IMG/VR virus record: IMGVR_UViG_3300032212_000077
Location: 1 to 37,233 of that record
Length of the DNA stretch: 37,233 nt
Reading direction: 5' to 3' (one strand)
Origin: a virus
Taxonomy: Duplodnaviria > Caudoviricetes
A program made the position numbers and the translations under genes. The notes under the pieces are model-generated. The model saw only the letters and a program-made list of their open reading frames with translations. It was not told where the DNA came from and ran no database searches. Positions 2,868 through 34,059 of the stretch are shown here, in pieces; the stretch's first letter is position 1; every line of letters starts with the position of its first letter.

Positions 2868-4466
2868 TTAGGCCACTTTAGATATTAGCCTTTGTAGGTT
2901 AACAATATCCCTTTCAGATGATTCCAAAATAGTACCGTCATCTCCACAAAGAGGGAGAGAATCATTATTTTCTCCCTTATTTATTTGAAAAATATTTTTA
3001 ATTGCTTCTAAATCAATAAGTTCTGATACTATTTTATTAAGATGAACGGTTCCAACTATCTGTTTTTTCACATTTACATGAAATCCGTTAGGGAAAAAGG
3101 TATTCAGAATCAATGATTTAAGTTCTTGCGAACCTTGTTTTAGTACTTTTTTAAGGTTCGGTATTATTTTAATCGTTTCTTGTATTACCCTTTCATTTAA
3201 GAAGGATTCATTATTTACATTGTCTATAATAATAAACTTGTGTTCTCGCTGCTCTTCTATAATTCCTTTTAACTCTCTGTATTCTTGTAACTCTATTTCT
3301 CCTATTGCATATTGACGGTTTAATTCCTTCATTCTTTCATCGATGCGGTCGATATCTCTTTTTGCTGTAGCTTTTCGGTTAGCCCTGTCTTGTTCGGCTT
3401 TTTTGAATTGTTGCCTTACTTCATTTTCTATATAATCAAGTATCCCTTTTTTGATCTTGAATTTGCCGAAAAGTTTCAATATTAAATCATGTGTAGCATC
3501 TACTCTTATTGATGTTCCTTTTTTTGCGTGGTAGTACTTGTATTTTTTGCTCCTACCTGTTGAAGCAGATGCGGTCATTCTTCTACCTGTACGTTCACAA
3601 AACACGTGCCCTTTTAACCAGTAGTCCACTTGTTTCGTTATCGTTTTAAATCTAGTCTCACTATCTGCCTTTATTCTCTCTTGAATCGTTTTAAACTCTT
3701 CTATAGTGATAACTGCATACTCGTTCCAATGCGCTTTAATAAACTTCTTTTCACCATCTATTAAGACAATGTTCGCCCCTGCATAAATTGGGTTCTGGAA
3801 AGTTTGATAAAACCTAGTTCTACTTAAACCTATTTGTTTAGCAGCTTCTAAGAAATAAGACCTACTAACATTCCCGTATAAATAAGACTTAAATATCTTT
3901 TCAATGATCAATAGTTTGTCTGTGCTGTCAGGTTCTAACGATTTACGATAATTAGATAAAACTATTTTTCGATAACCTGGAGGAGCCTTACTTCCTGTAT
4001 AATAGCCTTTACTTTTAATTGCTGTTAGGTTTTGCTTGATTCTTCTGGATGTATTGAAACTCTCTTCTTCTGCTATCCCTAATCGGATATTTAACATCAA
4101 TCTTTCACCACCTGAACCATAAACTAACCATTGTTCAACAAAATTGATTTGGACCCCAATAGCTTTAAACTTTTCAATCCACTCCCATGCTCTACCTGTA
4201 TTCCTGAAAAATCTATCAACTTTTTGATAGAGTACATAATTTGTTAAATTAGGGTTCCTTTTGCAGCGCCTGTATATTTCTTCCAATACGCCCCGTCTGT
4301 TTTCTTTCCAACTGCTTATTACCTCTTTGTAGATGGCTACTTTGTTCATTTCCATTAACCTTGGATGATTGGTGCAAAACATTTGCTGAGTCTCTAGGCT
4401 GTTGCCCTTCTTGTTTTGCTCTTCTTTGCTGCATCTTAGCACTAGTATAAACTTTTCTTTTTGCAT
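2868..4466 (-). CDS. Large serine recombinase (integrase)
   Basis: N-terminal LRCS (catalytic Ser), SLETQ, KVDRFFRN, AEEES, APPGY, NPIYAG recombinase domain, LKGHVFC, then coiled coil; 532 aa. Confidence 0.92.
   Translation of the reverse strand: MQKEKFILVLRCSKEEQNKKGNSLETQQMFCTNHPRLMEMNKVAIYKEVISSWKENRRGVLEEIYRRCKRNPNLTNYVLYQKVDRFFRNTGRAWEWIEKFKAIGVQINFVEQWLVYGSGGERLMLNIRLGIAEEESFNTSRRIKQNLTAIKSKGYYTGSKAPPGYRKIVLSNYRKSLEPDSTDKLLIIEKIFKSYLYGNVSRSYFLEAAKQIGLSRTRFYQTFQNPIYAGANIVLIDGEKKFIKAHWNEYAVITIEEFKTIQERIKADSETRFKTITKQVDYWLKGHVFCERTGRRMTASASTGRSKKYKYYHAKKGTSIRVDATHDLILKLFGKFKIKKGILDYIENEVRQQFKKAEQDRANRKATAKRDIDRIDERMKELNRQYAIGEIELQEYRELKGIIEEQREHKFIIIDNVNNESFLNERVIQETIKIIPNLKKVLKQGSQELKSLILNTFFPNGFHVNVKKQIVGTVHLNKIVSELIDLEAIKNIFQINKGENNDSLPLCGDDGTILESSERDIVNLQRLISKVA
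2935..2977 (+). other. Putative attP: tmRNA/tRNA 3'-end-like CCGTCATCTCCAC followed by a terminator hairpin
   Basis: CCGTCATCTCCAC at 2935-2947; 11-bp stem AGGGAGAGAAT/ATTTTCTCCCT at 2952-2977 followed by a T-rich run. All antisense within the integrase 3' end. Confidence 0.6.
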
Positions 4467-5441: not shown

Positions 5442-5831
5442 TTACAATTTAAAATCTTCAACAATAGTTTTAGCTGTCTTTGGCCCAATACCTTTAATCG
5501 CTCCAAATAATTTTACATCCTTATCAGTAATCCCCTTTAGTATTTCCTGTTCGGTTAATCCTGACATTATCGTAATAGCTGTACTACAACCAATCTTTGG
5601 TAACTTAATAAGCTGCTTAAATAACTGCCTTTCATTCTCATTTATAAAGCCGTATAGTGTCCGTTCCGACTCTGTTATCTTTTCATGGACTAATAACATC
5701 ATTTCAGGTAGTTCTTTTATTTCAGCAAAGGTTTTACTGTCAATATGGATGCCGTAACCTACCCCATGGTTTTCTAATGCTATGTAGTTTTTATCGAATA
5801 CTAATAGTTTGCCTATTATGTGGTTAATCAT
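5442..5831 (-). CDS. ruvA: RuvA-like Holliday-junction-binding protein, domains I-II only
   Basis: MINHIIGKL...GVGYGI...LYGF..ENERQLFKQLIKLPKIG...IKGIGPKTAKTIV matches the RuvA OB fold plus two HhH motifs; ends at 129 aa. Confidence 0.85.
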   Translation of the reverse strand: MINHIIGKLLVFDKNYIALENHGVGYGIHIDSKTFAEIKELPEMMLLVHEKITESERTLYGFINENERQLFKQLIKLPKIGCSTAITIMSGLTEQEILKGITDKDVKLFGAIKGIGPKTAKTIVEDFKL

Positions 5832-10400: not shown

Positions 10401-11228
10401 CTAGTTTAAAAAGTCGTCAGGTTCTTGGAAATCAGTTTCAGTATTAGATGTATTGCTTTTTACATTTAGCTTATCCCATACCAACCCTGTCCAACCTTCG
10501 TCTAAAGTGTAATCCAGTACCGTTCTAATATCATCAATAGAGTAAGCATTGAATCTATTACAATAAGCTGAAATGCTTCGACCTGTTTTTAATGGCTTCT
10601 TTATCTCCTTCCTGTGTTTCAGATATTCTATTAGTAGCTTTTTCTTTTTTGGTACTAATGATTTAGCCTTGTCTGAATTGATAACTAATTCATATTGATG
10701 CTTACCTACTTGCTTTAATAATACTTTTTGAGTTTTAGAAAGAGTATCCCCTGTGGGGATTATAGGGGTAATATCAGTAGTTACATTAGTGTTACTATAA
10801 GGTATAGGTTTGCCCTTTTGGACAAATGACATTTGCCCTTTTGGGGTAATTCCATTTGCCCTTTTGGACAAATCGTGTTTCCCCTTTTGGAACGGCAGTT
10901 TATTACCTGTTAATTCACATCCCTTTTCAGTTAAGGCATACCATTTAGTTCTGTCAAATTTTAACTTATTAAAGTTACCTGAAGCTAAGTAACTTTCTTT
11001 TTCTAGCTTATCTATTGCCCCTCTTATAACCTTTGTAGATAAGTATGGGTATATTTCTTCAAAACCTTTTATTGGGCAATAAAACCATACTAAACCATTG
11101 ATCACTTTAGTAGGATTATGTAGGTTTTTTTTATGCCAAAAAGAAAAATGTTGTACCAAGATGGCTAAAACGACATTTTTTAATTTTCTCGCTATTTCTA
11201 CACTAAATGAATGTGAATCGTTATTCAT
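10401..11228 (-). CDS. Phage replication initiator (N-terminal winged helix)
   Basis: HSFSVEIA...YPYLS...GNFNKLKFDRTKWY N-terminal domain, internal iterons, C-terminal GWTGL; upstream of DnaB. Confidence 0.85.
   Translation of the reverse strand: MNNDSHSFSVEIARKLKNVVLAILVQHFSFWHKKNLHNPTKVINGLVWFYCPIKGFEEIYPYLSTKVIRGAIDKLEKESYLASGNFNKLKFDRTKWYALTEKGCELTGNKLPFQKGKHDLSKRANGITPKGQMSFVQKGKPIPYSNTNVTTDITPIIPTGDTLSKTQKVLLKQVGKHQYELVINSDKAKSLVPKKKKLLIEYLKHRKEIKKPLKTGRSISAYCNRFNAYSIDDIRTVLDYTLDEGWTGLVWDKLNVKSNTSNTETDFQEPDDFLN
10809..10893. repeat. Replication-origin iterons
   Basis: TTT(G/C)CCCTTTTGG four times at an exact 23-bp period (10809, 10832, 10855, 10878) inside the initiator gene, as in lambda O. 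Confidence 0.85.
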
Positions 11229-11232
11229 GGGT

Positions 11233-11901
11233 TTAAGTATTTTGTAGTAAAAAATTCATGGTAGATTCCATGTTCTTGATTTCCTGTTCTACTGCTAAAG
11301 CATTCTTTCTTAGTATTTTTATTAATGGCTCAAAGGGAGTTATTCTATTCACCCACATTATATTTCCATACGCCCAATTATACAGGATGTAATCGCACCA
11401 TTTTCTTTCCGTACACATTAATTGATAGTTTATCTGACACCACGTACTTTTTGGCATTTCCCAGGTTAGTCTACGTTTCAAAAACTGTGGATTGTCAGGA
11501 CATTTTATTTCAATTAACCCATCCTCTCCTACTAATCCGTCAGGGCTGCAACCTATGTGTTTTGAATACTGAACAAACCCGACTCTATTTACTTTGCTGT
11601 AGGTTTTTTCTTCATACATCTTGATTACTAATGGTTCGTAATCCTTCCCTCTTTCTGTATGGACATTGCTAAAGTCCGCTTTATCTTCATCTCCTTCACT
11701 TCTTCCTCCTGTGATTACTTCTGAAGCTTTTTTATACAAATGTGTCATTGCTCCCGTACCTAACCCTAATCTACCTTTACCTTTTACTGCTAAAATCTCT
11801 GCTTTGCTTGCTGTAAATTTCCCTTCTCTAATCTTATCCCATTGCTCCGTGTTTTGTTTTATACCATAATGATAAATTGGATATTGGTTAGATGGCTTCA
11901 T
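11233..11901 (-). CDS. YqaJ / lambda-exonuclease family protein
   Basis: QNTEQW...R.GKFTAS...RG...EP...GCSPDGLV...IEIKCP...QI..QL. Confidence 0.9.
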   Translation of the reverse strand: MKPSNQYPIYHYGIKQNTEQWDKIREGKFTASKAEILAVKGKGRLGLGTGAMTHLYKKASEVITGGRSEGDEDKADFSNVHTERGKDYEPLVIKMYEEKTYSKVNRVGFVQYSKHIGCSPDGLVGEDGLIEIKCPDNPQFLKRRLTWEMPKSTWCQINYQLMCTERKWCDYILYNWAYGNIMWVNRITPFEPLIKILRKNALAVEQEIKNMESTMNFLLQNT

Positions 11902-12719: not shown

Positions 12720-13365
12720 TTAAAGTATGGGGCATATTTCAGCCCCATCTAAGCAAACATACTTTGATAAAAAATTAAATCGGTTTTGGCTTAAAATGTC
12801 CTAATGATTAAATATTATAGATAATAGATTCTTTTGGTTAGGGTGAAGGGAGCCTATTAATTCTCTCTATTATTTTGGTCCCCTTCTATGCACCCGTAAC
12901 ACAATTTCTTTTGTCTAAATAGCCACTCATTTAAGAGTGGCTATGGAAAAGACTATGAGATTCCTATAAGGAAGATTCGATTTAAAAAAAAGCAGCGGGG
13001 TTAACTCATTATGCGTGGGATTTACTTTTGTAGCCTTTTCCCCGCTTGCTTAAAAATTTCTTTGTTCTTGAAAATGGTTGGAGTGGTTAAACTTCCTCCA
13101 ACCATCTACTCACTAGCTTTAATAAAACGGAACCTATATGAACAGTTCTTTTAATTTTGGTGAAAAAGGAGCGAACTTAATCGCTCCCATATAAACGAAT
13201 TTTAACCAAAATTTGTGTAAAAGAGAAAGGAATCGAACCTTAGAATTGAATCGTATTAGGGCTTAAACCTAATGTGTCCAACTTCGCCTGACTCTTTCAA
13301 ATAAAGGAGCGAGCTTTCCCGCCCCTTTTTAACAAATTATAATCCCATGAACATATCCAAAATTA
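12720..13365 (-). ncRNA. Non-coding array of at least 7 stem-loops (candidate polycistronic small RNAs)
   Basis: No ORF of 60 aa or more. Hairpins at about 12726-12748, 12837-12900, 12919-12944, 12990-13051, 13074-13105, 13155-13212 and 13303-13328; G-U pairs in the last favour the minus strand. Confidence 0.6.
13218..13298 (-). tRNA. tRNA-Leu(UAA)-like element with degenerate D-arm
   Basis: Acceptor GAAAGAG/CTCTTTT plus discriminator A; anticodon arm ATTAGG-TTTAAGC-CCTAAT; T-arm AAGG-TTCGATT-CCTT; no encoded CCA; D-stem not evident. Confidence 0.45.
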
Positions 13366-13369
13366 TCAC

Positions 13370-13801
13370 TTAAAATTCTCCATCTCCATCTCCATCTCCA
13401 TCTCCATATCCATCTCCATCTCCATCTCCATCTCCATATCCATATCCATCTCCATCTCCATCTCCATATCCATATCCATCTCCATCTCCATCTCCATATC
13501 CATATCCATATCCATATCCATATCCATATCCATCTCCATCTCCATCTCCATATCCATATCCATATCCATATCCATCTCCATATCCATATCCATCTCCATC
13601 TCCATCTCCATCTCCATATCCATCTCCATATCCATCCTTATCAAACCCTTGTCTTATATAGAAGGAGGTTTCTGTATCAAGCGGCTCTTTAATTTCCTCA
13701 TAAGTGCCAAAGTATTTTTTATTCCTTCTCACCCAATCCTTAACACCGCTTTGGCAAGCCCCTTTTGCAATTATGGTTTCGTAAGTGATTACTTTAGCCA
13801 T
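13370..13801 (-). CDS. Gly-Tyr/Gly-Asp repeat protein
   Basis: N-terminal GACQSGV..W domain followed by a long (G-Y/G-D)n tract; overlaps the DUF6948-like gene. Confidence 0.75.
   Translation of the reverse strand: MAKVITYETIIAKGACQSGVKDWVRRNKKYFGTYEEIKEPLDTETSFYIRQGFDKDGYGDGYGDGDGDGDGYGYGDGYGYGYGYGDGDGDGYGYGYGYGYGYGDGDGDGYGYGDGDGDGYGYGDGDGDGDGYGDGDGDGDGEF
13379..13636. repeat. Hexanucleotide tandem repeat (TCCATC/TCCATA)n
   Basis: About 43 uninterrupted units, GGA-GAT or GGA-TAT on the coding strand. Confidence 0.95.
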
Positions 13802-14058
13802 TTCAGAGCCGCTTTATCAGTTACATTAAATACAGCCGTTACATGGTGTAAAACAGCAATATCAGAAACACTAGACATTTTCGTTCTTTCAGTAGGGCCA
13901 GTATTACACAATTGTTGCAATCCGTCCTCTGTACCCCATTTAATTGCCATTCTGCAATTATACAAGTCTGTTAAGGTTTCTGAGGTAATATCTTTACCTT
14001 CCTCGATTTGAGCGAACCAAACGCCCCGATGCTTTGTAGTAATTAAATAATTTTTCAT
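13789..14058 (-). CDS. DUF6948-like phage protein
   Basis: LITT..RGVWF...L.NCR....W....GLQQL...GP pattern; a family I recall adjacent to GYGDG-repeat genes. Confidence 0.7.
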   Translation of the reverse strand: MKNYLITTKHRGVWFAQIEEGKDITSETLTDLYNCRMAIKWGTEDGLQQLCNTGPTERTKMSSVSDIAVLHHVTAVFNVTDKAALKWLK

Positions 14059-14112: not shown

Positions 14113-14397
14113 CTATGCTACTACCGTTTGAAACTGAGAAAAAACATGGTTGATCAAAGCGGGGCTATTCATTAAAGCCAACGGTAGCGGCTTGTCAAAA
14201 TCCTTATCCATTTTAATACATTGCTCACAAGCATATAAAACATCTTCATTAACTGCTTTTCTATTCATTACCCTACTTAAGTACTCTAAAGATATTCCTC
14301 TCTCTTTACCATTCGCTATGAGTCTTCTTTGCACTAATCGGAGTGTAAACCTGTCTCTTTCTTTTAGTATGCCCTTTAATCTATCCTCGTAATTCAT
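14113..14397 (-). CDS. Cro-like early regulator
   Basis: First gene of the leftward operon, divergent from the repressor; HTH-like ISLEYLSRVMN. Confidence 0.6.
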   Translation of the reverse strand: MNYEDRLKGILKERDRFTLRLVQRRLIANGKERGISLEYLSRVMNRKAVNEDVLYACEQCIKMDKDFDKPLPLALMNSPALINHVFSQFQTVVA

Positions 14398-14602
14398 TCG
14401 TTTGTCGTTTTATAATTAAGAAATTAAAGACCTATTCAAACATTTGTCAATATTTGTTTGATATTTGTAGTAATATTGTCTTGTGTTTTTGTATGACACA
14501 AATATGGTGACATTGTTCGCTAAAAAGCAAATATATTCACTAATTAAATTTAAAAAAATACAATATTTATAGTATTCGGTAGAAAAATACCAGAAAACGG
14601 TT
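14398..14602. promoter_or_regulatory. Divergent lysis/lysogeny control region
   Basis: Intergenic between divergent HTH genes; TATATTTG (-7 box) on the minus strand at 14528-14535; several ATATTTG/CAAATAT copies. Confidence 0.6.
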
Positions 14603-14950
14603 ATGGATAGTAAAGAAATAAAGGAAAAAGTTTTACTTTTAATTAATGATCTAATCAAAGGAAGAGGTATACCAATGTCCATTATATCTAAAAAATCAAC
14701 TATACCTTACCATAGATTAGATAAAATTAAAAGAGGAAAAGTGAAGGTCAATGAGTTGGATTTACAAAAACTCAACAAGGCTTATCCTTCAAAAAGTGAA
14801 AAAGTAAAAGAAAAGGATGAATTAAAATTAGAATTAGAGCAAAGAATAAAGCAATTAGAAATGGATAATAAGCTACTTAAAGAGATGATGATAAAATTAT
14901 TGAAAGAAAGAGGGGATACTGATTTGTCAAATCAAATAGAAAACCTGTAA
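14603..14950 (+). CDS. CI-like repressor (Xre HTH plus coiled coil, no S24 peptidase)
   Basis: MSIISKKSTIPYHRLDKIKRGK helix-turn-helix; one of only two credible plus-strand genes. Confidence 0.7.
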   Translation: MDSKEIKEKVLLLINDLIKGRGIPMSIISKKSTIPYHRLDKIKRGKVKVNELDLQKLNKAYPSKSEKVKEKDELKLELEQRIKQLEMDNKLLKEMMIKLLKERGDTDLSNQIENL

Positions 14951-14995: not shown

Positions 14996-15448
14996 ATGAA
15001 AACTATAATTACTCTTCTTGTTTTACTACCTGTTGTTTTGTTTGCCCAGGATATTCCTAAAAAGACAAGTAAAATCATTATTCACAATAACTTAAATGCT
15101 GAGGATAATTTTAAGCTAGTTGGAAGAACGGTTTTACAAAACGATTACCAAATAGAGAAAAAAGATAAAGACTTTGGCACTATTCAAACTGAACGCCAAA
15201 GTTATTCTAAGCCATTCCGATTGTCTTATTCTTGGTATTTTGATTTTGTTATAAGTGATAATAAAATAGTATTAACTGGCAAAATGACCTCAGATGAATT
15301 AGACGTAAACTCTAATACCTTTGCATCTTCTGACAATTGGGAAAAGATACAGAAAAGAGGAATGAAAAAAAGCTTATACTGGAATACCTTTCAAAAAATG
15401 AAAGAGTTTTCAGAATTATTTGAGTCTAAAAAGATAGAATATAAATAA
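14996..15448 (+). CDS. Secreted/periplasmic protein, paralog of 33604..34059
   Basis: Signal peptide MKTIITLLVLLPVVLFA|Q; co-oriented with the repressor. Confidence 0.8.
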   Translation: MKTIITLLVLLPVVLFAQDIPKKTSKIIIHNNLNAEDNFKLVGRTVLQNDYQIEKKDKDFGTIQTERQSYSKPFRLSYSWYFDFVISDNKIVLTGKMTSDELDVNSNTFASSDNWEKIQKRGMKKSLYWNTFQKMKEFSELFESKKIEYK

Positions 15449-32440: not shown

Positions 32441-32653
32441 TTATCTTATTTGACTATGGAGTATCAATAGCTTTAAAAAAACTTCACAACTCATCATTTT
32501 TGATTGTATGCAAAGTTCCTTATACTCTTTACTGGCTTGGTAAACTAAAAACGAATCTCGCAAATAGTCCTGAACCATCGAACTTTCAAAATATAGTTTA
32601 AATTCCTTTAATGCGTCTCGTTCTTTTTTAGGAAGTTGTTTTTTATTAGGCAT
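32441..32653 (-). CDS. Small protein coupled to the antirepressor
   Basis: 70 aa, overlaps the ant stop. Confidence 0.6.
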   Translation of the reverse strand: MPNKKQLPKKERDALKEFKLYFESSMVQDYLRDSFLVYQASKEYKELCIQSKMMSCEVFLKLLILHSQIR

Positions 32654-33350
32654 TGGTCGTAGGGTTTAATAAGTTATGAATAAAGTTTCTTCCTTTCTCC
32701 GTCCATTTCGTATGGTGTCGGCTCTTTTCATTACCATTCCTGTCTTCCCATAATATAGTGCTTACTTCCGTATATCCTTCATCTGCGTACCCTTCCGTTA
32801 ATACCCATTGCCCACTTATTTTGTACTGTACGCCTTTTGCTGCTAGTATCTTATTTAGCTTTATGGCACTCATGCCCATTTCTTTGGCTATGTGCGTAAT
32901 AGGAAAACTACCTTTGGTCGCTAATACTCTATCGTGGTACTCAATCTTAGGTTGGTCTTTTTCCTGTTGCTCTAGTAACTGTAAAATCAATCGTTGCTGC
33001 TCTAATTGGCTCGGTATCCGCAATGGTTGTTTTAGTTGCTTCTCGCATTCGATAAAATAACGCCTTGCTTGTCTGCCCTTTTCGTTGTTTTCGACCATAG
33101 CTAATTCTTTTGCCATGTCTAGGGTAATGCAGTATTCTATTCGGGTAGTTGCTCCGTTTTCTCGCTTCATAGAATTATGAAACGAGGTGTAATCAATATT
33201 TACAACAAATTGATATTTCTTTATCCTAGATTTAATCCAGTCAGAAAACTGTTGCTTTGATTCTAAAAAGTAATGTAAATCACGTGCAGAAATGCACTTT
33301 TGGAAAGTCTTGCCTTTTTTGATAGGCACTAATTCTGAAATCTTAACCAT
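32646..33350 (-). CDS. Phage antirepressor (AntA/AntB N-terminus plus KilAC C-terminus)
   Basis: SARDLH.FLE..QQFSDWIK.RI...LDMAKELAMVE..EKGRQARRYFIECEK; PKIEYHDRVL...IAKEMGMSAIKLN...WTEKGR.FI. Confidence 0.92.
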   Translation of the reverse strand: MVKISELVPIKKGKTFQKCISARDLHYFLESKQQFSDWIKSRIKKYQFVVNIDYTSFHNSMKRENGATTRIEYCITLDMAKELAMVENNEKGRQARRYFIECEKQLKQPLRIPSQLEQQRLILQLLEQQEKDQPKIEYHDRVLATKGSFPITHIAKEMGMSAIKLNKILAAKGVQYKISGQWVLTEGYADEGYTEVSTILWEDRNGNEKSRHHTKWTEKGRNFIHNLLNPTTNA

Positions 33351-33603: not shown

Positions 33604-34059
33604 CTATTTATATGACTTGTTTCCTTCTATTTCGTTAGCAATTAATTCCATTTTAGCAAATATTACCCCAAAAAAACTTTTTGGTTTTTTGTTGTAGTAA
33701 ACTTCCCTATACTCTGTTTTCTTTTCTTTAAAAAGTGGTGAAGTCTCTAGTGCATTTTCATCACCCGCCCATTTTGCTGAAATAGTTATTTTGTTTTTTG
33801 TAGTAGTTATTTTAAAATAATACCACATTTTTATTCCTAATTTAGTTAAAGTTAATTCTTCTGTCACAATAGACCCGAAATCTTTATTACTGCTTTTGAT
33901 CTCCAAATCATTTGCAATAATAGACTGTCCTGTGATTTTATAATTATCATCAGCCGTTAAATCGTTTTCAATTATTATTTTAGTTGTCTTTTTATGAATA
34001 GGTTGCCCCCATAAAGAGCCACAAGTCAACAAAAAGGCAAAAAGGGTTAATAACTTCAT
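33604..34059 (-). CDS. Secreted/periplasmic protein, paralog of 14996..15448
   Basis: Signal peptide MKLLTLFAFLLTCGSLWG|Q; shares KKT.KIII.N.L.A.DN.K..G...ND..I...KDFG.I.TE. Confidence 0.8.
   Translation of the reverse strand: MKLLTLFAFLLTCGSLWGQPIHKKTTKIIIENDLTADDNYKITGQSIIANDLEIKSSNKDFGSIVTEELTLTKLGIKMWYYFKITTTKNKITISAKWAGDENALETSPLFKEKKTEYREVYYNKKPKSFFGVIFAKMELIANEIEGNKSYK

What the first reader, a model, noticed from the sequence alone, without database searches (positions are those of the whole stretch)
12720..13365. Array of hairpin RNAs with anti-start-codon (UCAU) seeds in the early operon
About 620 non-coding bp in a gene-dense genome hold at least 7 GC-rich stems. On the transcribed strand several stems are preceded by U-rich stretches containing UCAU: GUUCAUGGGAUUAUAAUUUGUU, GUUCAUAUAGGUUCCGUUUU, UCUCAUAGUCUUUUCC and AAUCAUUAGG. 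These are reverse complements of A-rich-leader-plus-AUG initiation regions of the Bacteroidota type. Spacers repeat (A/C)CAAA(A)GAA(A)U. Hypothesis: a processed polycistronic battery of trans-acting sRNAs silencing host mRNAs (for example defence or receptor genes) early in infection.
Basis: partly seen in the sequence, partly recalled or inferred. Interest (0 to 1): 0.78.

Follow-up and report, generated by a model that had tools for sequence, protein, structure and literature searches.

The report
Phage hairpin array borrowing host sRNA
A bacterial virus from a microbial mat has a gene-free run of seven predicted hairpins and an odd tRNA-like fold, whose first unit matches a repeated, uncatalogued element of Saprospiraceae bacteria that is likely a small RNA predicted to cover the start codons of host messages, so such viruses likely borrow their hosts' own RNA regulators, although no RNA or target has been shown and the other three proposed seeds found no support.

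Summary
Four UCAU words are a chance number (P=0.29), but unit 1 (13294-13360, minus) is real. Its 20-nt seed occurs in 58 of 81 Saprospiraceae-family genomes (1-8 copies; 4 of 301 phylum-wide), nearly always before a covarying hairpin and U run, and in 8 other viral contigs. Rfam has no such family; the FopS model gives 17.4 bits against a cut-off of 56, so it is FopS-like but not FopS. The seed pairs over host AUGs more than shuffles (3.7% vs 1.0%); no conserved target was found. One unrelated phage stacks three such host families with a tRNA, so batteries exist as a class. Here, seeds 2-4 have no homologues, no start-region preference and no target. Best reading: an early non-coding module with one captured host repressor sRNA, a tRNA-like element and hairpins of unproven role. 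Expression is untested. Earlier scan notes report FopS-like elements in other Bacteroidota phages; none that I was shown names these families.

The parts
13294..13360 (-). Unit 1: member of a multicopy Saprospiraceae sRNA-like family ('family A'); invariant seed 13331-13357, hairpin H1 13306-13325, U run 13299-13305; starts about 10 nt after the stop codon of the Gly/Asp/Tyr-repeat gene
   Evidence: Model R1 built from 45 other units: 58.9 bits, next best in the genome 12.2; up to 37 nt identical to other copies, median 27 of 186; seed in 58 of 81 family genomes
13218..13298 (-). Non-canonical tRNA-Leu(UAA)-like cloverleaf: acceptor 7 of 7 paired (one G-U), anticodon stem 5 of 5, T loop canonical, T stem with one U-U, short D arm, A73, no encoded CCA; its 5' end abuts the U run of unit 1
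   Evidence: Rfam tRNA 27.9 bits vs cut-off 29, E 0.0016; ARAGORN no at default, yes at relaxed threshold; 23 nt identical to a phage tRNA-Leu(TAA) in L101; pairs checked
13163..13217 (-). U-rich stretch directly after the tRNA 3' end, then hairpin H2 (13168-13187, a paralogue of H1) and U5; complement reads as a GUG-start region at the 68th percentile; role unproven
   Evidence: (repeat D1); no start preference
13071..13162 (-). Spacer, seed 2 (from 13143) and hairpin H3 (13074-13105) with a short U run; candidate second sRNA, unsupported
   Evidence: 64th percentile; 1 match vs 5 control in 51 genomes; no score with R1; no in-register enrichment
12984..13051 (-). H4: long stem closing a 40-nt A-rich loop, followed by U8, the best terminator candidate of the array
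   Evidence: loop pairs with seed 1 at -15.0 kcal/mol, P=0.02 post hoc
12919..12975 (-). Seed 3 (UCAU at 12955-12958) and perfect 10-bp hairpin H5 (12919-12944); seed unsupported
12841..12895 (-). H6: interrupted stem with A-rich loop, no U run
12788..12826 (-). Seed 4 region (UCAU at 12804-12807); unsupported
12727..12761 (-). TAnnTTTG promoter-like box (12754-12761) and hairpin H7 (12727-12748); likely promoter and leader of the recombination/replication genes (inferred)
   Evidence: box consensus recalled for the Bacteroidota primary sigma factor
12829..13065 (-). Three A-rich spacer motifs starting at 13065, 12914 and 12837, each just after a hairpin
   Evidence: 3 vs 0.03 expected (motif chosen post hoc)
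13370..14058 (-). Upstream genes: DUF6948 (13789-14058) and Gly/Asp/Tyr-repeat protein (13370-13801)
14113..14950 (.). Divergent pair of weak helix-turn-helix genes (cro-like 14113-14397 minus, cI-like 14603-14950 plus) with a promoter-like box at 14528-14535 (minus), the likely source of transcription into the array
   Evidence: Pfam HTH hits below cut-off; box; roles inferred from layout

Best explanation
The region is a gene-free module behind the early genes of a likely temperate phage of Saprospiraceae; its first unit matches a multicopy host element that is likely a small RNA, predicted to pair over the start codons of some host messages and so likely to lower their translation, and a tRNA-Leu-like fold and further hairpins of unproven role follow it. 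Shown: the family, its host range, its hairpin covariation, its presence in unrelated phages, and stacking of up to three such families with tRNAs. Inferred: transcription from the cro-side promoter, release of unit 1 as a roughly 60-nt RNA by a 5' cut and by termination or an RNase P cut at the tRNA 5' end, help from an RRM protein of the RbpB kind, and broad, short-seed repression as for FopS. The phage would thereby raise the dose of a host repressor during early growth or lysogeny. The tRNA-like element would act as a cutting signal, a UUA reader, or both. Seeds 2-4 are not needed by this reading.
For: Seed in 58 of 81 family genomes, control 0; 4 of 301 phylum-wide; 121 metagenome stretches listed, about 340 estimated, often tandem. 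Hairpin plus U run follows in 141 of 161 distinct units vs 27, 37 and 16.5% in three controls. 12 of 12 stem pairs show two-sided changes; 84.7% paired vs 42-48% when slid. Window unit 58.9 bits. Same unit with other hairpins in L105 and L106, which share no protein with the window, and in 6 further contigs at 45-54 bits. In-register pairing at E<=-9 with 3.7% of 1322 host starts vs 1.0%, 0 of 60 shuffles. Families B (32 of 51 genomes, 28 viral loci) and D (11 of 41) have the same build; L105 holds A, B and D. RRM genes in 5 of 5 family genomes. FopS precedent: PMC11697453. TTA is 53% of phage Leu codons vs 8% in G353.
Against: No RNA data: no RNA run laid covers the region. No conserved long target; gldM rejected. 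The run-length version of the pairing test is borderline (7.6% vs 2.6%, P=0.05), used one genome that may not be the host, and any U-rich word with CAU suits A-rich starts; in the looser duplex test a negative control scored like seed 1. In 4 phage contigs the unit starts 6-10 nt after a stop codon, which also fits a plain terminator module. No close relative of this phage was found, so conservation of the array as a whole is untested. The tRNA fails default thresholds.
Confidence: 0.5

Rival explanations
1. The units are cis-acting 3'-end modules: terminators or attenuators whose conserved U-rich box binds a protein that aids termination or 3'-end stability, placed around a tRNA gene between two phage promoters.
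For: Unit starts 6-10 nt after a sense stop codon in L477, L479, L485, L487 and about 10 nt after one here; H4 has U8; promoter-like boxes at 14535 and 12761 bracket the array; no conserved target.
Against: In hosts the units lie mostly far from any stop codon (7 of 170 within 60 nt), in either orientation to neighbours and in tandem runs of up to 5. Three families with different invariant seeds all contain anti-AUG words.
Confidence: 0.2
2. One reading: every hairpin unit is a processed guide, and seeds 2-4 are phage-specific guides against host or phage mRNAs not present in my sample (for instance seed 2 against the phage's own cI-like start).
For: Seed 2 complement at the 64th percentile of real starts; seed 2 with the cI-like start at -15.8 kcal/mol, P 0.04-0.06 for that single pair; repeated spacers; L105 shows that batteries of three host seeds exist. 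The true host genome was not available.
Against: UCAU count is chance; seeds 3 and 4 at the 13th and 26th percentile; no in-register enrichment for seeds 2-4 (P 0.13-0.92); best phage target of seed 2 no better than shuffles (55%); no homologues.
Confidence: 0.15
3. The array is a decoy: unit 1 and the A-rich loops and spacers titrate the host RRM chaperone or the host sRNA itself (H4 loop as sponge), upsetting host regulation without guiding to mRNAs.
For: FopS 5' parts bind RbpB (PMC11697453); RRM genes present; H4 loop pairs with seed 1 at -15.0 kcal/mol, top 1.7% of phage windows, P=0.02.
Against: The H4 pairing was noticed post hoc among 45 inverted pairs; a decoy need not keep a 26-nt seed letter for letter with AUG register.
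Confidence: 0.1
4. Inert cargo: host and phage scraps picked up by recombination, with a decaying tRNA pseudogene.
For: D arm and T stem are imperfect; most units have no homologue.
Against: Seed identical across unrelated phages while hairpins differ but still pair; acceptor stem fully paired with a sequence unlike its relatives; strongest fold in a compact genome.
Confidence: 0.05

Closest known systems
FopS sRNA family (Rfam RF04319) and GibS of Bacteroides thetaiotaomicron; PMC11697453 (passages; section 8 whole; supplements not read)
   Same: Multicopy; single-stranded 5' stretch with a UUCAU anti-start word followed by a terminator hairpin; a copy reported in one phage; a 3'-UTR-derived member exists; RRM protein in the host lineage. 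The Rfam alignment matches the UUCAU-G..AUUA core.
   Different: 17.4 bits vs cut-off 56, E 6.4; 0 of 31 genomes of the order pass the cut-off; different family of hosts; tandem host arrays; invariant seed with freely varying hairpin; stacked in phages with other seed families and tRNAs; targets and chaperone binding not shown.
Trans-acting phage sRNAs PreS (lambda), VpdS (VP882), AgvB anti-sRNA; review PMC12197685 (passages); bioRxiv 10.1101/2024.10.31.621285 (search listing only)
   Same: Phage-borne small RNAs in accessory regions that act on host gene expression.
   Different: Those are Hfq-dependent, described as single genes in Proteobacteria; the review has no word starting 'Bacteroid' or 'tRNA'. 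Here the unit is a copy of a host family and sits in a tRNA-containing array.
Phage tRNA-Leu(UAA) genes (L101-L104)
   Same: Anticodon arm 23 nt identical to L101; T loop and A73 kept.
   Different: Short D arm, U-U in the T stem, two extra bases after position 8, A/U-rich acceptor stem; fails default detection.
tRNA-punctuated RNA precursors (murine gammaherpesvirus TMERs, engineered tRNA-guide arrays); recalled, no call
   Same: tRNA or tRNA-like fold adjoining small regulatory RNAs in one transcript.
   Different: Processing here is only inferred from adjacency.

Membership tests
FopS (RF04319) | Score above the Rfam gathering cut-off | tested here: not met
   17.4 bits vs 56; no FopS hit on 10 + 14 loci holding families A, B or D at E<=1 and E<=5
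FopS (RF04319) | Single-stranded 5' seed followed by terminator hairpin and U run | tested here: met
   141 of 161 units; covariation
FopS (RF04319) | Multicopy in host genomes | tested here: met
   1-8 copies in 58 of 81 genomes
FopS (RF04319) | Seed pairs at start codons of target mRNAs (susC homologues) | tested here: inconclusive
   In-register excess over shuffles; top 15 include 4 proteins with CHU_C, Ig_7 or Por_Secre_tail domains and GldM but no SusC; gldM not conserved
FopS (RF04319) | Own TAnnTTTG promoter directly upstream | tested here: inconclusive
   Present in the window at 13358-13365 but in only 18 of 170 units
FopS (RF04319) | Binding to the RRM protein RbpB; accumulation as discrete RNA | not testable with these tools
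   RRM genes in 5 of 5 genomes; no RNA run covers the region
Family A (defined here, model R1) | Invariant seed plus paired hairpin, scored by a model built without the window | tested here: met
   Unit 1: 58.9 bits, E 6.5e-12 (rough calibration); other array units below 10 bits
tRNA-Leu(UAA) | Cloverleaf above Rfam or ARAGORN default thresholds | tested here: not met
   27.9 vs 29 bits; ARAGORN none, called only at -ps85
tRNA-Leu(UAA) | Paired acceptor, anticodon stem with UAA, T loop, long variable region, A73 | tested here: met
tRNA-Leu(UAA) | Canonical D arm and T stem; aminoacylation | tested here: not met
   D arm short with a C-A opposition, T stem U-U; charging not testable here

The most novel reading that the evidence does not exclude
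Phages of Saprospiraceae assemble batteries of captured host small RNAs in early non-coding operons and use tRNA or tRNA-like cloverleaves as RNase P/Z cutting signals to release them, a natural multiplexed guide array that re-tunes host translation; the orphan units of this window would be further guides matched to its unsampled host.
Probability: 0.25. Interest if true: 0.85.

Novelty: new variant of a known kind. Interest (0 to 1): 0.64.

Why it matters
It extends FopS-type anti-start regulation from gut Bacteroides to three uncatalogued, highly conserved element families of an environmental Bacteroidota family, and shows that unrelated phages carry them unchanged, singly or stacked with tRNAs. 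The FopS paper only suggested a phage role from one phage hit. If the RNAs work in trans, phage capture of host regulators is common in this phylum, the seeds give direct probes for northern blots and interactome work, and seed 1 serves as a host marker for orphan phages (58 of 81 vs 4 of 301 genomes).

Tried and rejected
Close relatives: none. Phage database blastn gave only 26-61 nt chance hits; the cro-like protein found only itself; exonuclease and DnaB scans found nothing; the DUF6948 scan gave two 14-residue hits. 100 loci (98 around homologues of the downstream gene, plus those two) had no comparable low-GC array; two GC-rich gaps reached 5 hairpins by my counter and were not inspected. 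Sequencing runs: 23 of 24 had shares of 0.05-0.07, probably from the GATGGA repeat; of 7 different runs laid, only the possible source X1 and one 174-nt contig of X2 touched the region, and neither of the 2 RNA runs did. Phage-derived start profile: seeds not better than shuffles. Loose duplex test: timed out after 10 of 15 seeds and its negative control behaved like seed 1. Long conserved targets: seed 2 complement 9 hits vs 13 control in 61 genomes; seed 1 wobble pattern returned almost only the element's own copies; exact 12-mer targets at ORF starts 0 for all 11 window CAU words in 2.8 Mb. gldM: 0 of 29 starts with a run of 9 pairs, median equal to the host median. Seed 2 as paralogue of unit 1: upstream profile score -1.7, top 6.8% only. 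Pseudoknot or switch between H4 and seed 3: an 11-bp helix is reached by 10 of 60 shuffles. Short plus-strand ORFs from the seed AUGs (4-18 codons by reading): not pursued; antisense ORFs of family B vary from 6 to 64 codons. Ribozymes, riboswitches, tmRNA: no Rfam hit at cut-off. Eight of the 15 loci scored 29 bits or less and were dropped as chance.

Full report
Setting. The window is the whole record. It encodes a serine-type integrase, DnaB, replication initiator, exonuclease, terminase, capsid, tape measure and anti-repressor, with A-rich leaders before its start codons: a likely temperate phage of Bacteroidota. The only run holding most of the region is a microbial mat metagenome that may be its source. 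The flagged stretch lies on the minus strand behind a weak HTH pair, a DUF6948 gene and a Gly/Asp/Tyr-repeat gene, before the recombination and replication genes.

Observation. Seven stems are present; the region folds at z=-4.52 and is first of 113 windows. The four UCAU stretches are there, but four is a chance number (2.77 expected, P=0.29). The spacer motif occurs 3 times against 0.03, with the caveat that it was picked from this sequence. Rfam gives no hit at cut-off. Below cut-off it gives tRNA at 13218-13298 (27.9 vs 29 bits) and FopS at 13296-13354 (17.4 vs 56 bits, E 6.4).

The tRNA-like element. A pattern from its anticodon arm found 4 viral loci, all tRNA-Leu(TAA) by ARAGORN; 23 nt are identical to L101. 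Acceptor 7 of 7 and anticodon stem 5 of 5 pair, A73 is kept, the T stem has a U-U, the D arm is short, CCA is not encoded. ARAGORN calls it only at a relaxed threshold. TTA makes 53% of 914 phage Leu codons against 8% in one family genome that need not be the host.

Unit 1 is a host-type element. Laying run X2 showed a 32-nt exact match with another flank. The 22-nt seed then occurred exactly in two viral contigs, L105 and L106, that share no protein with the window and continue into different hairpins. The 20-mer is in 121 listed metagenome stretches (23 of 64 parts scanned, about 340 estimated), often in tandem runs of 2-5. In genomes it is in 58 of 81 drawn from the family of G001, whose locus L068 is titled Saprospiraceae, with 1-8 copies and no control match, against 4 of 301 across the phylum. 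G001 itself lacks it. Units are intergenic (4 of 170 overlapped an ORF over 100 aa). A hairpin and U run follow in 141 of 161 distinct units, against 27 and 37 in two positional controls and 16.5% in shuffles. In 45 aligned units (45 drawn at random from 111) all 12 stem pairs show two-sided changes, 84.7% of cells pair against 42-48% when slid, 0 of 500 shuffles; hairpins were partly delimited by folding, so this leans towards pairing. A model from these 45 gives the window unit 58.9 bits, next best 12.2, L105 52.9 and L106 61.1. A shorter pattern gave 15 viral loci, 7 at 45-61 bits (one is the L106 contig), 8 dropped at 29 bits or less. So 8 viral contigs besides the window carry it; some may include host flanks. 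Rfam names nothing over these units in 24 loci, and the FopS model passes cut-off in 0 of 31 genomes of the order.

Does it read as anti-start? With a profile from 1322 ORFs in 2.0 of 6.2 Mb of G353, the complement of seed 1 sits at the 91st percentile of real starts, seed 2 at the 64th, seeds 3 and 4 at the 13th and 26th. With CAU fixed over AUG, seed 1 forms helices of -9 kcal/mol or better with 3.7% of starts against 1.0% for shuffles (0 of 60; shuffles were run on half the genes); the run-length measure gives P=0.05; seeds 2-4 show nothing. Against this: counts of good anti-start sites per array are not significant here (2 vs 1.2) or in L106 (3 vs 2.0), only in L105 (6 vs 2.4, P=0.035), and the looser duplex test was not specific. 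Of the 15 best partners scanned, 4 carry CHU_C, Ig_7 or Por_Secre_tail domains and one is GldM (no background rate taken); gldM pairing is not conserved (0 of 29). No long conserved target exists in 61 genomes.

Batteries as a class. L105 and L106 share a second 27-nt seed, family B, found in 32 of 51 family genomes and 28 viral loci, followed by hairpin and U run in 17 of 27 and 13 of 23 distinct units by my counter. A third L105 seed, family D, is in 11 of 41 genomes, with hairpin and U run in 11 of 12 fetched loci, the twelfth being cut off. L105 thus holds three host families and tRNA-Asn in 1.3 kb. Same-strand tRNA or tRNA-like folds lie within 500 nt in 10 of 26 viral rows (9 of 24 contigs; four are close kin; relaxed threshold) against 1 of 53 host loci. 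In the window the tRNA 5' end abuts the U run of unit 1.

The rest of this array. Blastn of 12720-13330 in 151 family genomes gave 9 weak, non-recurrent hits, most in coding frames. Seed 2: 1 match vs 5 control in 51 genomes; seed 3: 2 vs 0 and seed 4: 6 vs 3 in 41, all different two-mismatch words. Prompted by note e1-7965793 I tested seeds on the phage's own starts: seed 2 with the cI-like start gives -15.8 kcal/mol (P 0.04-0.06 alone, not significant over all 58). These units stay unexplained; H4 is the best terminator and H7 may be the leader behind a promoter-like box at 12761.

Mechanism. Shown: family, host range, structure, phage spread, stacking. Inferred from FopS, which represses by pairing near start codons and binds the RRM protein RbpB (PMC11697453; passages, section 8): unit 1 is released from the early transcript and adds to the host's own repressor, lowering translation of a broad set of starts. 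RRM genes exist in 5 of 5 family genomes. RNase P/Z cutting at the tRNA is inferred from adjacency and from general knowledge. Confidence 0.5; rivals are a cis terminator module (0.2), the full battery (0.15), a decoy (0.1) and inert cargo (0.05).

Novelty. It works like FopS but is not a member by the Rfam test. Eight literature searches (open-access library only) showed no paper on these families or arrays in their listings; the FopS paper mentions one phage copy of FopS, and its supplements were not read. A review of phage sRNAs has no Bacteroidota or tRNA entry (PMC12197685, passages). Earlier scan notes describe FopS-like elements in other Bacteroidota phages; look-ups by place, by this sequence and by family name returned nothing. 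Verdict: new variant of a known kind, interest 0.64.

Noticed in passing
L449-L473 (hosts), L421-L448 (viral): Family B: a second invariant anti-AUG seed plus hairpin and U run, in 32 of 51 family genomes and 28 viral loci (23 distinct contexts), absent from the window; no Rfam family.
   Followed up: partly
L521-L532; L105:3170-3220: Family D: third family with conserved seed and hairpin base, 11 of 41 genomes (lower bound, query had 2 mismatches), carried by phage contig L105.
   Followed up: partly
L105:2527-3800; L106:2870-3880: Phage non-coding arrays of 1.0-1.3 kb: L105 follows a divergent gene pair and holds A, B, D, tRNA-Asn and two more anti-AUG stretches; L106 holds A, B, tRNA-Met and tRNA-like folds.
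   Followed up: partly
L432, L433, L437, L439, L440, L106: Odd tRNA-like folds (8-nt anticodon loop, extended anticodon arm, missing D arm) next to these elements; in L432 and L440 one ends 9 and 14 nt before seed B.
   Followed up: partly
L238-L272: 9 of 33 genome loci of family A lie downstream of a same-strand ORF with a CxxCH haem motif and peroxidase-like words (my regex, not Pfam); 6 of 33 have a shared promoter-like word 56-110 nt upstream.
   Followed up: partly
window 13331-13363; run X1 record 1: The possible source run's contig leaves the phage sequence after 13363 and shows a second seed copy 101 nt on, which suggests another replicon in that sample with a tandem array (inference).
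   Followed up: partly
window 11225-11245 (start of replication initiator 10401-11228): Best phage partner of seed 1 (-18.8 kcal/mol, first of 58 starts, top 1% against host starts); could be self-regulation or chance.
   Followed up: partly
window 13370-13801 and 13789-14058: DUF6948 gene followed by a protein ending in about 90 residues of Gly-Asp/Gly-Tyr repeats encoded by a 6-nt tandem repeat.
   Followed up: no
window 14996-15448 and 33604-34059: Two similar 150-aa proteins with signal-peptide-like starts and no Pfam hit, one beside the cI-like gene; possible superinfection-exclusion proteins (inference).
   Followed up: no
window 2868-4466, 5442-5831, 32646-33350: Serine-type integrase in the middle of the leftward gene run, a short RuvA homologue and an anti-repressor.
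   Followed up: no
G071:C38:33921-34619: A family B unit lies about 470 nt downstream of an RRM gene in 1 of 5 genomes checked.
   Followed up: no
L490 (G463:C3:156885-156953): A 44.1-bit FopS-like element in a genome of the same order, below cut-off.
   Followed up: no
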